A stretch of DNA of 64,000 bases. It comes from Octopus vulgaris. Its lineage: Eukaryota. This document shows positions 1 to 64,000 of the stretch, piece after piece; positions within the stretch are counted from its first letter, which is position 1, and the number at the start of each line of letters is the position of its first letter. The DNA is taken from the NCBI GenBank assembly GCA_951406725.2, contig OX597819.1, positions 99,386,001-99,450,000 on the forward strand, in the 5' to 3' direction. The position numbers were made by a program.

Positions 1-3000
1 GATAAGCAGCTTGATGACAACTTGACTTATTACTATGGGAACAGGCAATATTAATAAATATGCCTATGGCTTTCGATTGGATAAAATTATCCCAAATTTG
101 CAAACTTTAATAGTTATCAACTATTTATATATTGATTTATGGCGACGATCAATGGCATTTCAATAATTAGCATACAAAAGTACATCAATACATCAAATCT
201 GAAATCAAGCAAACTTGAAGCAATTGAAAAGGGGCAGACAAACAGAAAAGAACCATAATATTTATAATAGCCATGGAGCCATTAATTCGACAGGCATATT
301 TCTTGAGGTAAATTCTGCATTATTTTTTATCGGATTTCCTTGTCGTTTCGACTTTTACACCAATCAAAAAGTTATGTTGGATTAATGGGCAGTACTTAGA
401 AATTCTTGCAAACTGCTAGATAGATGAATGTAGTGATACAGCAGGAACTTGAGAGGGATAGTTTTGTTCGTTGTTTACATATCAGTGCAGGTGAACATTT
501 AAGGTGGGAAAGAAAAAGAAAAAGAAAAAGAAAAGAAAAGAACAGGGAGCTGTATTCAGTCAAGTGTATGCTGTCAACTGAGCGCGGACAGGAAGATAGG
601 AAGAATGAAAAAAGATACAAGAACTTGGGAATACGGGAAAAACAGAAAAGGGAAAACATACACTGTATTATGGATAAGAAATATTTAGTTGATAAGAGAA
701 TAATCCCCAACCCATGTTTCTCTAATAAATAGACAAAAGCTTTAAATAAAACGGTAAGTAAAACTTTGTTCTTATCATTAATAGTTTCATCCCAATACAA
801 CTCACGATTTTATCTCCTACCATTTCTTTTAAGAATTAAGAATTTTAATACGAGAAGATGGAATAAACAAGTTTGATGAACATCTATATTCAATGATAAT
901 TTTATTTTCTTCATTCGGTCAGATATAAATGAATGTCTAACGAATACAATATGTGAACACAATTGTACAAATACCAAGGGCAGTTTCGAATGTTCGTGCC
1001 GGTCTGGTTATGAACTTTTTAATAATACACGATGTGAAAGTAGGTATCACTCCCATACTCGTTCTTATTGCAAGTGCATTTTCTTTTGTAAACATGTTCC
1101 TATATAAAGTTTTCATATATATTATGTATTTGTAATGTAATTACATATATTAATGTAAATATGTATATATATATATATATATATATATATATATATATAT
1201 ATATATATATATATATATATATATATATATATATATATATATATATATATATATATATATATATATATATATACGTATTTCAAAATACAAAATTACCCTT
1301 TAACAGGTAATTTTTACTTGCTAGAAATAGCAGCCAACACGGCCAAAAACCACAATTTTATAGCAAATTTCGAAGTAGATGAAAAATAAAAAAACTTTAC
1401 TTTGTTATTTAACGGTAATGCCATGGATTCAAATTTCTTTAGCAAATAATATTGCTTGCCATTTTTTAATAGATAATTTAGCAAGACCATATTATCTACC
1501 AGGCGAATTCTCGTCAGTAACCGGCCTTAACAACTAACTTATAATTCAGAGACAAGATAACACGTGTCCCATCATTATATGTTATAATTTTTAAAATACC
1601 GCGCGCAGGCACATTTACAGTCAGCAATAGATACAATGCCGAGCTGAAACTTCGAGAATGCTAAGAACATATTCATAAGGTACATAATATATATATATAT
1701 ATATATATATATATATATATATATATATATATATATATATATATATATATATATATATATATATATATATATATGTGAACACAATTGTACAAATACCAAG
1801 GGCAGTTTCGAATGCTCGTGCCGGTCTGGTTATGAACTTTTTAATAATACACGATGTGAAAGTAGGTATCACTCCCATACTCGTTCTTATTGCAAGTGCA
1901 TTTTCTTTTGTAAACATGTTCCTATATAATATACAGAGAGAGAGAGAGAGAGAGAGAGAGAGAGAGAGAGAGAGAGAGAGAGATAAATAAATAAATAGAT
2001 AGACAGAAACAAAGGTGATTTTATAATGTAAATATGACTACCAATGGCTCATAGTTTCAGGTCTGGTTTTATTATGACTACGATAGTTTCTGTCCCTTAG
2101 GAAATAGTTTCCTGCCTAGCTTCATTTCCGAGGTCTACTCGTCTTTTATTATCGGAATTACTTTGTTTCTACTCGAATGTAGACACAATAATTTTGATAT
2201 ATTCAAAATACCAAGTATTCGAAAACGAAATTTGCAATTGAACCAGTGTATTTTTAGATATCAAGCTAATATTAGGAAAACTGGTATATATTATTTATTG
2301 ATTGTAGTATTATTAAAGAGTTATTTAAAAAAAAAACTATTAGACAATTTTGAAAACTGATCCACAGTGGAGTCTGGTATAGCTTTAAGAGCTATTTTGA
2401 TATCAGAAAAACTAAAACTGTATGCATAACGCAGCAGTTGTTTTGTGTAGACGATTCGCTACAGGGATCATCTAAAAAAGAAATAATATTAAAATAGTTC
2501 TTCGACTGAATTATATTTATTTAATGAAGACTTTTCGATAAAATTGCATCGTTAATTCGGAATCACAGAGAAATTAAACAGTCAATATATGATGTTAAGT
2601 GATCCTTAAACGTTTAAATATGCTTTTGAAAGACACAAACATCTGTTGAAATAATTGGACCTTTATTTATAGATCAGCAGTACATACACGTTTTGATAGA
2701 AAAATTTTACAAATTTTGAGAAACCGTGAAATAGTACTTTTTATGCAATATCTCGAAACACATATAAAGCTTTACATAATAGCATGTAAATAAAAGTTTG
2801 GAAACCCCTTTTGGATTGAAACAGTGAAACACCTGTCATGCTTACAAATGTGTCCCACTACCAGTCTTTGTTTTTTTCTGTCCCAATGAGTTTCTTTTCA
2901 TCCCAATATTTACAAGCTATTATTTATAGCTTTATGTATTTTCTTCGAGATTTTCCAGAAAAGTTTTAATAAATATTTTGGATAATTCAATCAAACTGAA

Positions 3001-63000: not shown

Positions 63001-64000
63001 TAAGCTATCTATTTGTTTATAAATGTAAGTCGGACTAGACATTACAATAAGAATTCCTTTACGTGTTGTGTAAAACGTCATTAATACATTGCGAGTGTTT
63101 TGTTTCGTTTTATAAAACGCTTTATATTTCAAGAGGAAAGCCTATATCCGGCTGGAAAATTTTCTCCACAATTGTCCACATAAAGTATTTTTCCATTTTG
63201 GAATAATTTCTTTAATCTAATGCCAGACATAACGTTGAAAAAGAACAGCTTTAAGTTGAATTTTCTTTACTTAGAATAACTCAAAAAGTTAATGTTACCG
63301 GTGTTGTATTCAAATAAAATTTGACAATTGACGCAGAACAGAAATGTTTAATATAGAAATAGATATTTCTGATATTTTCGTAAGACTAATAGTGACAGAT
63401 ATGTTTGTCCCGTGTGAAGAGGGCAAATGCTAGCAAATTGTGTCCACAACTTTCATTTTCTTAAAAGTAAAAATGTTGTAAGGGTTTGTTTCTTTGTTCT
63501 TAATTTATGAAAATATCAACCCGCAAGACTGAAATATTATGTACGCTAACAATAATTTATATATTTTGCCATACTGCTTTTTTCCTATATTAAATTTACC
63601 AATTGAAAACTACTTTTACAGAAATTGATGAATGCTCTAGTAGTCCGTGCCCACAAGACTGCCTAAATACTCCGGGTAGCTTTGTGTGTAAATGTCGAAG
63701 TGGCTATAAAAAGAATGGAACTACCTGTGAAGGTAAGACAGACTACTATATAGAGCCCTAGTTGATCTTCTAATCAATAATTTCTGTAAGAATTATTTAT
63801 GTCTAGCAGAATTTTTACCGCTGGCTGCGAGATTTCAAGTTTCCAATAATTAAAAATGCTGTCTGAATATTTAGATATATTACAGATAAACAACCAAGTC
63901 TACCAAGTTGGTATACAAACGTGGTAATCAGATAAGGTGCATCGGATCTTATTCCCCCTATTTAACAAAGTAATTACTTTCAGCATTACAATTATGTTAG

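What the first reader, a model, noticed from the sequence alone, without database searches (positions are those of the whole stretch)
923..63732. Tandem polyprotein-like MUC4-type mucin: a 26-exon, roughly 52 kb module repeats within one reading frame
Seen: exons 27-32 are one-to-one paralogs of exons 1-6, and the introns also align (422-482 with about 52089-52150, about 2280-2780 with 54580-56240 apart from the Helitron, about 8260-8500 with 63733-64000). The frame runs through the 5502-nt (1834 aa) period with no stop, signal peptide or TM segment. Known: in MUC4 the PTS-NIDO-AMOP-VWD-EGF cassette occurs once and is followed by a TM anchor. Here the first EGF array leads into a PTS-NIDO-AMOP-VWD cassette, which leads into a second copy of that array. 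Inference: intron homology extends upstream of exon 1, so another NIDO-AMOP-VWD cassette should lie left of the window, making this a giant concatenated mucin. I do not know of this architecture being described, but cannot verify novelty.
Basis: partly seen in the sequence, partly recalled or inferred. Interest (0 to 1): 0.8.

Follow-up and report, generated by a model that had tools for sequence, protein, structure and literature searches.

The report
Octopus MUC4-like mucin with repeated units
This octopus DNA holds one and a quarter copies of a 52-kb, 26-exon unit of a MUC4-like mucin gene that seems to be strung several times into one reading frame, an arrangement visible in database gene models but not found in the papers searched.

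Summary
The window is Octopus vulgaris or a very near relative. Its + strand carries 32 GT-AG exons. e1-e26 sum to exactly 5502 nt (1834 codons). e27-e32 are paralogues of e1-e6, and the introns align too (68-85% identity), giving a period of 51.5-55.5 kb. No exon or junction codon is a stop, and no TM-grade or signal-peptide-like segment was found.

One unit is a Thr-rich linker, a PTS exon (78-nt repeat x14), NIDO, an AMOP-position module, VWD with GDPH, C8-3 and about 13 EGF domains.

The one-gene reading has independent support. NCBI model XP_036359396.1 (O. sinensis, 2665 aa, partial) is co-linear with 6365-50262. It reads EGF array, linker, PTS, cassette, second EGF array, TM, tail. O. 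vulgaris model CAI9724667.1 joins a different cassette, lying left of the window, to the window's left EGF array.

No transcript was seen, and the O. vulgaris annotation splits the locus. Two-cassette predictions with a single TM already exist in frog, newt, sea urchin and other database entries.

Verdict: real, probably one multi-unit membrane mucin gene (about 0.6). It is a new variant of a known kind, of moderate interest.

The parts
923..1039 (+). e1, calcium-binding EGF exon (phase 1-1); first exon of the left EGF array
   Evidence: Pfam EGF_CA E=6.5e-09; splice sites and phase
3456..3590 (+). e2, cbEGF exon
   Evidence: 100% identical to P0001
5198..5314 (+). e3, EGF exon
   Evidence: tblastn to P0003/P0005/P0006
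5661..5774 (+). e4, cbEGF exon
   Evidence: peptide identical to e30
6183..6437 (+). e5, double EGF exon (14 Cys)
   Evidence: Pfam EGF_CA E=4.2e-10; 100% identical to P0001
8140..8259 (+). e6, cbEGF exon
   Evidence: 100% identical to P0001 and P0013
8998..9129 (+). e7, cbEGF exon
   Evidence: 100% identical to P0013
11514..11633 (+). e8, EGF exon
   Evidence: 100% identical to P0001
15450..15569 (+). e9, EGF exon
   Evidence: 100% identical to P0001
17995..18246 (+). e10, double EGF exon (14 Cys)
   Evidence: 100% identical to P0001; weak EGF Pfam hits
20518..20604 (+). e11, last Cys-rich (6 Cys) exon of the array, phase 1-1
   Evidence: DNA read; 85% identical to P0013; P0001 reads it in another frame
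22237..22281 (+). e12, 45-nt Thr-rich linker exon, phase 1-1, strong CAG acceptor and GTAAGT donor, no stop
   Evidence: DNA read; used by P0013 and P0001
23811..25130 (+). e13, PTS exon (440 codons, 58% Ser/Thr/Pro), phase-1 acceptor; alternative acceptor at 23778 used by P0001
   Evidence: P0013 residues 316-745 map here
23911..25009 (+). 78-nt (26-aa) tandem repeat, 14.1 copies, 91% matches, inside e13
   Evidence: Tandem Repeats Finder
25816..25956 (+). e14, second PTS exon (61% Ser/Thr/Pro)
30004..30110 (+). e15, exon leading into NIDO
   Evidence: 100% identical to P0013
30911..31228 (+). e16, NIDO first part
   Evidence: Pfam NIDO E=6.5e-06, 26.7 bits
31879..32092 (+). e17, NIDO second part
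   Evidence: Pfam NIDO E=0.0032, 17.9 bits, below cut-off; full NIDO in contiguous homologues
35582..35784 (+). e18, AMOP-position module, first part (4 Cys)
   Evidence: Pfam AMOP E=0.021, 15.4 bits, below cut-off; 100% identical to P0013
37927..38131 (+). e19, AMOP-position module, second part (6 Cys)
   Evidence: no Pfam or PDB hit; 100% identical to P0013
40449..40703 (+). e20, VWD first part; GDPH motif at 40460-40471
   Evidence: Pfam VWD E=1.2e-07; motif read
41155..41298 (+). e21, VWD middle part
   Evidence: co-linear with P0013 (97%); no Pfam hit on its own
42863..43066 (+). e22, VWD last part
   Evidence: Pfam VWD E=9.1e-06
43958..44197 (+). e23, MUC4-type C8-3 domain
   Evidence: Pfam C8-3_MUC4 E=3e-10
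45735..45942 (+). e24, module of no known family
   Evidence: 98% identical to P0013; no Pfam hit
47023..47186 (+). e25, Cys-containing module (5 Cys) of no known family
   Evidence: 100% identical to P0013; no Pfam hit
   Evidence: Pfam cEGF 1.4e-4 and EGF 2.2e-4
52469..52582 (+). e27, paralogue of e1
   Evidence: 83% nt identity, 6 of 6 Cys kept
56647..56781 (+). e28, paralogue of e2
   Evidence: 90% nt identity
57680..57796 (+). e29, paralogue of e3
   Evidence: 96% nt identity
58131..58244 (+). e30, paralogue of e4
   Evidence: 99% nt identity, peptide identical
58654..58908 (+). e31, paralogue of e5
   Evidence: 96% nt identity, 14 of 14 Cys kept
63622..63732 (+). e32, paralogue of e6 (9 nt shorter)
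   Evidence: 84% nt identity
401..8512 (+). left copy of the duplicated segment (exons and introns)
   Evidence: self-blastn
52067..63999 (+). right copy of the duplicated segment, longer because of a Helitron-like insert and microsatellite expansions
   Evidence: self-blastn

Best explanation
The window is an internal piece of one very long octopus gene for a MUC4-like, membrane-tethered mucin. Its ectodomain is built from at least three tandem copies of a unit of about 1834 residues, 26 exons and about 52 kb.

One unit reads: Thr-rich linker, PTS repeats, NIDO, AMOP-position module, VWD with GDPH, C8-3, two modules of no known family, and about 13 EGF domains. The window holds the EGF array of one unit (e1-e11), the linker (e12), a complete next unit's PTS and cassette (e13-e26), and the start of that unit's EGF array (e27-e32). 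The signal peptide lies to the left of the window. The juxtamembrane module, TM and tail lie to the right.

Shown: the duplication, the exon structure, the open frame, the domain content, and the existence of three distinct cassettes.

Inferred: that all units are transcribed and translated as one chain; that the units arose by unequal crossing-over, helped by phase 1-1 exon boundaries; and that each GDPH site self-cleaves as reported for MUC4. If cleavage occurs, the chain would be cut into pieces that each straddle a unit boundary and stay associated without a covalent link.
For: 1. e11, e12 and e13 are all phase 1-1 or phase-1 entry. e12 has a strong acceptor and a GTAAGT donor and no stop, so it must splice onward. 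The next coding exon is the PTS exon, whose acceptor is phase 1.
2. The PTS open frame has no hydrophobic start. The 3.2-kb gap holds no credible signal-peptide exon: 2 candidates, both microsatellite-coded. A strict scan of 1-23810 found 0.
3. The window holds no homologue of the TM, tail or juxtamembrane module of P0002 or P0008 (best E 0.06-0.7) and no TM-grade segment.
4. XP_036359396.1 (P0013) is co-linear with 6365-50262. It is 99.1% identical (793/800) over e15-e26 and reads straight across the boundary, ending in one TM and a tail.
5. CAI9724667.1 (P0001) runs e11, e12, then the start of the PTS exon. It links a different cassette upstream to the window's left array.
6. Both arrays keep 44 of 44 Cys against 190 of 232 other columns (Fisher p=3.5e-4). 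Exons are better conserved than the mostly intronic blocks. Units without their own signal peptide are therefore still under selection.
7. Mucin-4-like proteins are reported in the O. vulgaris skin-mucus proteome (PMC11431876, passages).
Against: - No RNA evidence was seen. I could not inspect what supports the NCBI model, which is flagged partial.
- Only 1 protein spans a boundary into a PTS. A search of proteins under 1465 aa found none (4 hits).
- Compared with the window, P0013 lacks or skips at least one unit. Its second array is the orthologue of P0002's, not of e27-e32 (69-95% identical). It is therefore an imperfect witness.
- The O. vulgaris annotation splits the locus. P0001's CDS stops inside e13, although it gets there through a frame other than the EGF and PTS frames. 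P0006 (O. bimaculoides) starts at a Met inside a PTS.
- The cuttlefish relative P0008 is a single unit with its own signal peptide and TM.
- dN/dS between the two arrays is 0.99, from only 12 synonymous and 52 non-synonymous differences.
- Frame continuity is expected by chance where nearly all exons are phase 1-1.
Confidence: 0.6

Rival explanations
1. The locus is a tandem array of separate MUC4-like genes. Each would be PTS-cassette-EGF array, as in cuttlefish. Only the last would have a TM, and the upstream ones would be secreted. The read-through models would then be annotation fusions of neighbouring paralogues.
For: The cuttlefish P0008 has one unit with a signal peptide and a TM. O. 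vulgaris models P0001 and P0002 and O. bimaculoides P0003 and P0006 are each about one unit long. P0006 starts in a PTS and P0001 ends in one. Gene predictors often fuse tandem paralogues whose exons share a phase.
Against: There is no signal-peptide exon, stop, TM or recognisable terminal exon between e11 and e13. The linker exon has a consensus donor and no stop. P0001's stop comes from reading e11 and e13 out of their conserved frames. P0006's first residues are not a signal peptide. Without one, an EGF/VWD protein could not be secreted, yet the units keep intact frames and all Cys.
Confidence: 0.22
2. The locus is one transcription unit used as a unit-choice gene. Because unit boundaries are phase 1-1, whole units could be skipped. 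Mature mRNAs would then carry one or a few units spliced to the shared terminal EGF, TM and tail exons, and not all units at once.
For: 25 of the 32 exons are phase 1-1. P0013 joins the window-type cassette to the terminal array, omitting the window's right array and P0002's cassette. P0001 and P0002 omit several EGF exons in frame.
Against: The same differences can come from assembly collapse, real copy-number differences between species, or model building. No transcript was seen.
Confidence: 0.12
3. The repeat is an assembly artefact, or the upstream units are untranscribed relics of duplication.
For: A 159-bp piece of e1 is repeated at 99% identity 822 bp downstream, next to a (TA)n run. 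That could be a local assembly error. dN/dS is about 1.
Against: The two large copies differ by 15-32% in the mostly intronic blocks, and by a Helitron-like insert and other indels, so they are not duplicated haplotypes. Three distinct cassettes are seen in independent annotations of two species. All 32 exons keep open frames, GT-AG sites and every Cys.
Confidence: 0.04

Closest known systems
Vertebrate MUC4 (transmembrane mucin; PTS-NIDO-AMOP-VWD/GDPH-EGF-TM)
   Same: Same order of PTS repeats, NIDO, VWD with GDPH, MUC4-type C8-3 and EGF domains. Orthologous models end in a TM and a short tail.
   Different: Here the whole unit recurs at least three times, apparently in one frame. Each unit has about 13 EGF domains rather than a few. 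Pfam's AMOP model does not reach its cut-off. A juxtamembrane module precedes the TM in the orthologues.
XP_036359396.1, mucin-4-like, partial (Octopus sinensis; P0013)
   Same: It is the orthologue: 99.1% identical over e15-e26 and co-linear with 6365-50262. It reads EGF array, linker, PTS, cassette, EGF array, TM.
   Different: It holds one cassette and two EGF arrays, and its 5' end is open. Its second array is the terminal one (the P0002 orthologue), so it lacks or skips a unit present in the window's genome. Its PTS is longer.
Two-cassette MUC4-like predictions in other phyla: Xenopus tropicalis A0A803JTA1 (P0019), Pleurodeles waltl mucin-4-like X2 (P0025), Diadema setosum (P0029), an EukProt entry (P0014), P0015
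   Same: They have two NIDO/VWD/C8-3 cassettes separated by EGF arrays. Each has a single C-terminal TM-like segment and none between the cassettes. P0029 also has a Pro/Ser/Thr-rich stretch between its cassettes.
   Different: They are only 29-33% identical to the octopus query region in the three listed with an identity. All are predictions that could themselves be fused models. Two cassettes are seen in them, against at least three in octopus.
Single-unit invertebrate MUC4-like proteins: cuttlefish P0008, cnidarian mucin4-like (PMC9080433), coral skeletal mucin-like protein B3EWY9 (PMC3748352)
   Same: They share the NIDO-AMOP-VWD core with EGF domains. Some cnidarian and amphioxus forms have a signal peptide, a TM and an extra SEA domain near the membrane.
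   Different: They have one cassette per protein. Neither paper's passages mention repeated cassettes.

Membership tests
MUC4-type transmembrane mucin | Ser/Thr/Pro-rich tandem-repeat (PTS) domain | tested here: met
   e13 has 440 codons, 58% S/T/P. It contains a 78-nt repeat x14.1 at 91% matches.
MUC4-type transmembrane mucin | NIDO domain | tested here: met
   Pfam NIDO on e16, E=6.5e-06, 26.7 bits, above the 25-bit cut-off. NIDO is full-length in contiguous octopus homologues, E=2e-15 and 2e-17.
MUC4-type transmembrane mucin | AMOP domain between NIDO and VWD | tested here: inconclusive
   e18 gives Pfam AMOP E=0.021, 15.4 bits, below the 25-bit cut-off, and e19 gives no hit. There are no PDB hits and no Atlas hit. 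Pfam AMOP also fails to fire on the frog, amphioxus and mussel homologues. The position and 10 Cys fit AMOP, but the eight-Cys rule is recalled, not tested.
MUC4-type transmembrane mucin | VWD domain carrying a GDPH motif | tested here: met
   Pfam VWD on e20 (1.2e-07) and e22 (9.1e-06). GDPH lies at 40460-40471.
MUC4-type transmembrane mucin | Autocatalytic cleavage at GDPH | not testable with these tools
   Only the motif is seen. Cleavage is described as putative even for human MUC4 in the abstract of PMC8660890 (search listing).
MUC4-type transmembrane mucin | MUC4-type C8-3 domain after VWD | tested here: met
   Pfam C8-3_MUC4, E=3e-10, 39.7 bits, on e23.
MUC4-type transmembrane mucin | EGF-like domains after the VWD region | tested here: met
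   e26, e1 and e5 hit EGF families. e27-e32 are their paralogues.
MUC4-type transmembrane mucin | Single C-terminal TM anchor and cytoplasmic tail | tested here: inconclusive
   None lies in the window. It is present in orthologous models P0013 and P0002, which extend beyond the window.
MUC4-type transmembrane mucin | N-terminal signal peptide | tested here: inconclusive
   None was found in the window. It is expected to lie left of the window. It is seen in cuttlefish P0008.
MUC4-type transmembrane mucin | One NIDO-AMOP-VWD cassette per polypeptide (canonical form) | tested here: not met
   The frame enters the cassette from a preceding EGF array and leaves into another. Three distinct cassettes exist. 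This is the respect in which it is a variant.
   It starts with TC, ends with CTAG, has a hairpin of dG -22.7 just before the end, and sits between host A and T when compared with the empty site at 2701/2703.
   The insert is 1168 bp, too short for one. If it is a Helitron, it is non-autonomous.

The most novel reading that the evidence does not exclude
The octopus skin or epithelial MUC4-like mucin is a self-cleaving chain of three or more 1834-residue units on one membrane anchor. Each GDPH site would cut the chain. The mature product would be a string of non-covalently held pieces, each straddling a unit boundary (VWD C-part, C8, EGF array, linker, PTS, NIDO, AMOP-position module, VWD N-part). 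This would give several shear-sensitive release points. Unit number would differ between O. vulgaris and O. sinensis, or be varied by skipping whole phase 1-1 units.
Probability: 0.25. Interest if true: 0.65.

Novelty: new variant of a known kind. Interest (0 to 1): 0.42.

Why it matters
MUC4 is taught as a mucin with a single NIDO-AMOP-VWD cassette and a single GDPH cleavage that splits it into a mucin subunit and a membrane subunit. A natural protein with several such cassettes in series would show that the whole MUC4 ectodomain can act as a repeat unit. It would also raise the question of what repeated self-cleavage does to a tethered mucin.

There is a practical point for cephalopod genomics. 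The current O. vulgaris, O. sinensis and O. bimaculoides models of this locus are mutually inconsistent (split, frame-shifted, partial or running into transposon sequence). Proteomic studies that report 'mucin-4-like' biomarkers in octopus mucus rely on these models.

Tried and rejected
- Phase compatibility as proof of one gene: rejected as weak, because 25 of 32 exons are phase 1-1.
- dN/dS of e1-e6 against e27-e32: 0.99 from only 64 differences, so uninformative alone. I replaced it with the Cys-column test.
- Tree of the VWD-to-e26 region of 8 cephalopod cassettes, to date the duplications: all 5 inner branches had support below 80, so it is unresolved.
- AMOP: exon-level Pfam was below cut-off. 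The PDB sequence search gave nothing for e18 or e19. The transitivity test failed because Pfam AMOP was not reported in the frog, amphioxus or mussel homologues either. The ESM Atlas gave no usable hit.
- Pfam on whole P0013 listed only EGF-type families (7), although the corresponding window exons hit NIDO, VWD and C8-3 singly. Whole-protein scans of these long, low-complexity proteins under-report domains.
- Search for a second boundary-spanning protein under 1465 aa: 4 hits among 54 candidates, none entering a PTS.
- Cuttlefish signal peptide, TM and tail, and O. vulgaris TM and tail, used as tblastn probes on the window: noise only.
- Pfam on 9 intronic ORFs that look transposon-derived: 1 weak hit (zf-RVT, 47392-47643 minus strand, below cut-off) and 8 without a hit. 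My 'mariner-like' reading of 34196-34999 is recalled and unconfirmed.
- Genome contigs holds only bacteria and archaea, so it was not used.
Contiguous context came only from public proteins.
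Full report
WHAT THE WINDOW IS.
The window has 64,000 bases, no N and 33% G+C. It is rich in microsatellites. A single VWD exon used as a query found 12 proteins among 80 candidates. The best was 94% identical and came from Octopus vulgaris ('mucin-4-like'). 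Others came from O. bimaculoides (84-88%), Argonauta, a cuttlefish and mussels. Six exons of the left EGF array are 100% identical to O. vulgaris model CAI9724667.1 (P0001). The window is therefore O. vulgaris or something extremely close to it. Nothing in it looks human.

Self-blastn shows a co-linear + strand diagonal from 401-8512 to 52067-63999. Identity is 68-85% across exons and introns alike.

I built the exon chain from tblastn cores of public homologues, GT-AG sites and phase arithmetic. I set two donors (e13, e19) to those used by the public model P0013. The chain has 32 exons. There are no stops within exons or in split codons. The highest 19-residue hydrophobicity mean is 1.34, so there is no TM-grade segment. 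e27-e32 pair one to one with e1-e6 at 83-99% nt identity. The genomic period is 51.5 kb (e1 to e27) to 55.5 kb (e6 to e32).

I never joined the window's exons into a spliced model. Where contiguous sequence was needed I used public proteins.

DOMAIN CONTENT.
Pfam on 10 single ORF containers matched 5:
- NIDO on e16 (E=6.5e-06) and e17 (E=0.0032, below cut-off).
- VWD on e20 (1.2e-07) and e22 (9.1e-06).
- C8-3_MUC4 on e23 (3e-10).
EGF families hit e1, e5, e10 (weakly) and e26. GDPH lies in e20 at 40460-40471. The PTS exon e13 has 440 codons, 58% Ser/Thr/Pro, with a 78-nt repeat in 14.1 copies.

AMOP is unresolved. e18 scores 15.4 bits against a 25-bit cut-off and e19 scores nothing. PDB sequence searches and the Atlas gave nothing. 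Pfam's AMOP model was not reported for the frog, amphioxus or mussel homologues either. e24 and e25 belong to no known family.

WHERE THE GENE BOUNDARY SHOULD BE, AND WHAT IS THERE.
The cuttlefish relative P0008 (1481 aa) shows the single-unit order: signal peptide, PTS, NIDO, VWD, a long EGF array, a juxtamembrane module, TM and tail. If the octopus units were separate genes, the boundary would fall between e11 (20518-20604) and the PTS exon (23811-25130).

That 3.2-kb interval is mostly microsatellite, plus one 45-nt exon, e12 (22237-22281). e12 encodes a Thr-rich linker. It has a long pyrimidine tract with CAG before it and GTAAGT after it. It is phase 1-1 and has no stop. The PTS exon has a phase-1 acceptor. 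Its open frame begins only about 40 nt upstream and has no hydrophobic start.

A relaxed scan of the gap for ATG-hydrophobic-GT first exons gave 2 candidates, both microsatellite translations with poor donors. A strict scan of all + strand sequence from 1 to 23810 gave 0, as did the minus-strand control. Probes made from the cuttlefish signal peptide, and from the TM, tail and juxtamembrane modules of P0002 and P0008, found only noise in the window.

INDEPENDENT MODELS.
A search for longer proteins (1839-5000 aa; 55 hits among 7999 scored candidates) returned one octopod: XP_036359396.1, 'mucin-4-like, partial', O. sinensis, 2665 aa (P0013). Its residues 1-1800 are co-linear with window 6365-50262. 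It is 99.1% identical (793/800) over e15-e26. It reads EGF array, a linker identical to the window's e12 at all but one of the codons compared, PTS, cassette, a second EGF array, two linkers, a juxtamembrane module, one TM and a tail.

Two cautions apply. I cannot see the evidence behind that model. Its second EGF array and 3' end are the orthologue of O. vulgaris P0002 (CAI9724672.1), not of the window's e27-e32, which are only 69-95% identical to it. Relative to this window, the O. sinensis model therefore lacks or skips at least one unit. The cause could be a real copy-number difference, an assembly collapse or a model artefact.

Its C-terminal exons are the window's e2, e5, e6, e8, e9 and e10. 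Its VWD-to-e26 part is only 89.8% identical (403/449) to the window's cassette, so that part is encoded elsewhere, upstream. P0002's cassette is a third one: 87.9% identical to the window's and 86.9% to P0001's.

P0001 also runs e11, e12, then the PTS exon. However, it reads e11 and the PTS exon out of their conserved frames and so stops at 23892.

EVIDENCE AGAINST, STATED PLAINLY.
- No transcript was available.
- A search of proteins under 1465 aa for a second boundary-spanning sequence found 4 hits, none entering a PTS.
- The O. vulgaris annotation splits the locus.
- O. bimaculoides XP_014781778.2 (P0006) starts at a Met within a PTS. P0003 runs from the linker into transposon-like sequence.
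- dN/dS between the two arrays is 0.99, from 12 synonymous and 52 non-synonymous differences.
- An open frame across units is expected where 25 of 32 exons are phase 1-1.

Set against the dN/dS result: all 44 Cys columns are kept, against 190 of 232 others (Fisher p=3.5e-4). Indels are multiples of three. Exons are better conserved than the mostly intronic blocks.

MOST LIKELY MECHANISM.
I read the locus as one gene whose ectodomain unit was multiplied by unequal crossing-over. The symmetric phase of the boundary exons made this possible without breaking the frame. The product would be a membrane-tethered mucin with at least three PTS brushes and three GDPH sites. If these sites cleave as reported for MUC4, the chain becomes a series of non-covalently held pieces. 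That step is inference.

Mucin-4-like proteins are reported in the O. vulgaris skin-mucus proteome (PMC11431876, passages read). I could not open its supplements, which might name the accession detected.

COMPARISON WITH WHAT IS KNOWN.
Local phmmer with single window exons against the 67 fetched proteins found 6 with two MUC4-type cassette elements. It also found 3 FCGBP-like proteins with several VWD only. Five of the 6 have one C-terminal TM-like segment and none between the cassettes. Pfam confirms NIDO x2, VWD x2 and C8-3 x2 in Xenopus A0A803JTA1. It confirms NIDO x2 in the EukProt entry and in the Diadema protein. In the Diadema protein, EGF arrays and an extensin-like stretch lie between the cassettes. 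All of these are predictions.

Three literature searches and passages of four papers found single-cassette MUC4-like proteins in cnidarians and corals, but no description of repeated cassettes. The papers were PMC11431876, PMC9080433, PMC4948705 and PMC3748352.

VERDICT.
The finding is real and accurately described. The single-gene reading is the best explanation (about 0.6) but is unproven. The architecture is a new variant of the MUC4 kind. It is already latent in public gene models, so its interest is moderate.

Noticed in passing
window 54977-56143 (right copy; empty site at 2701/2703 in the left copy): A 1168-bp insertion with Helitron hallmarks: 5' TC, 3' CTAG, a strong sub-terminal hairpin (dG -22.7) and an A|T target. 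It contains an internal 134-bp direct repeat. O. bimaculoides model P0003 ends in sequence similar to the minus strand of this element (window 55724-55870).
   Followed up: partly
window 949-1107 and 1771-1929: A 159-bp piece of e1 plus its downstream intron is repeated at 99% identity 822 bp downstream. It follows directly on a (TA)n run and lacks the exon's first 26 nt and its acceptor. It is either a very recent local duplication or an assembly artefact.
   Followed up: partly
window 23811-25130 versus P0013 residues about 305-938: The PTS exon has about 14 repeats of 26 aa here, but the O. sinensis model has a PTS of roughly 630 residues. This suggests repeat-number variation, as in vertebrate mucin VNTRs.
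   Followed up: no
window 4564-7056 versus 57046-59606: The block holding e3-e5 is clearly more alike (85% with introns, exons 96-99%) than the neighbouring blocks (68-78%). This suggests gene conversion between units.
   Followed up: no
window 59600-62900: The right copy is about 3 kb longer than the left because of repeated blocks rich in (ATT)n/(AAT)n-type trinucleotide runs. The left copy has about 710 bp (3853-4563) without a partner in the right copy.
   Followed up: no
window, many sites (for example 12400-12650, 15100-15350, 30250-30400, 36900-37350, 51700-51950, both strands): A short interspersed repeat recurs in the introns. In one frame it translates to a recurring peptide seen. 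It looks like a SINE-like element, but it was not classified.
   Followed up: no
window 34196-34999 (+), 16009-17600 (-), 26858-27900 (-), 47392-47643 (-): There are intronic ORFs that look transposon-derived. Of 9 tested, only 47392-47643 gave a Pfam hit (zf-RVT, E=1e-4, below cut-off). The 'mariner-like' reading of 34196-34999 is from memory and unconfirmed.
   Followed up: partly
public models CAI9724667.1 and CAI9724672.1 (O. vulgaris): The two O. vulgaris models that bracket this locus are five accession numbers apart. If numbering follows gene order, four more models lie between them and may be fragments of further units. This is speculation and was not checked.
   Followed up: no
P0002 (CAI9724672.1) residues about 830-1290: This O. 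vulgaris model carries a 26-aa Asn/Arg/Asp-rich repeat between the two halves of the juxtamembrane module. O. sinensis P0013 has no such repeat there. The period equals that of the PTS repeat, so it may be PTS-like DNA read in another frame or a retained intron.
   Followed up: no
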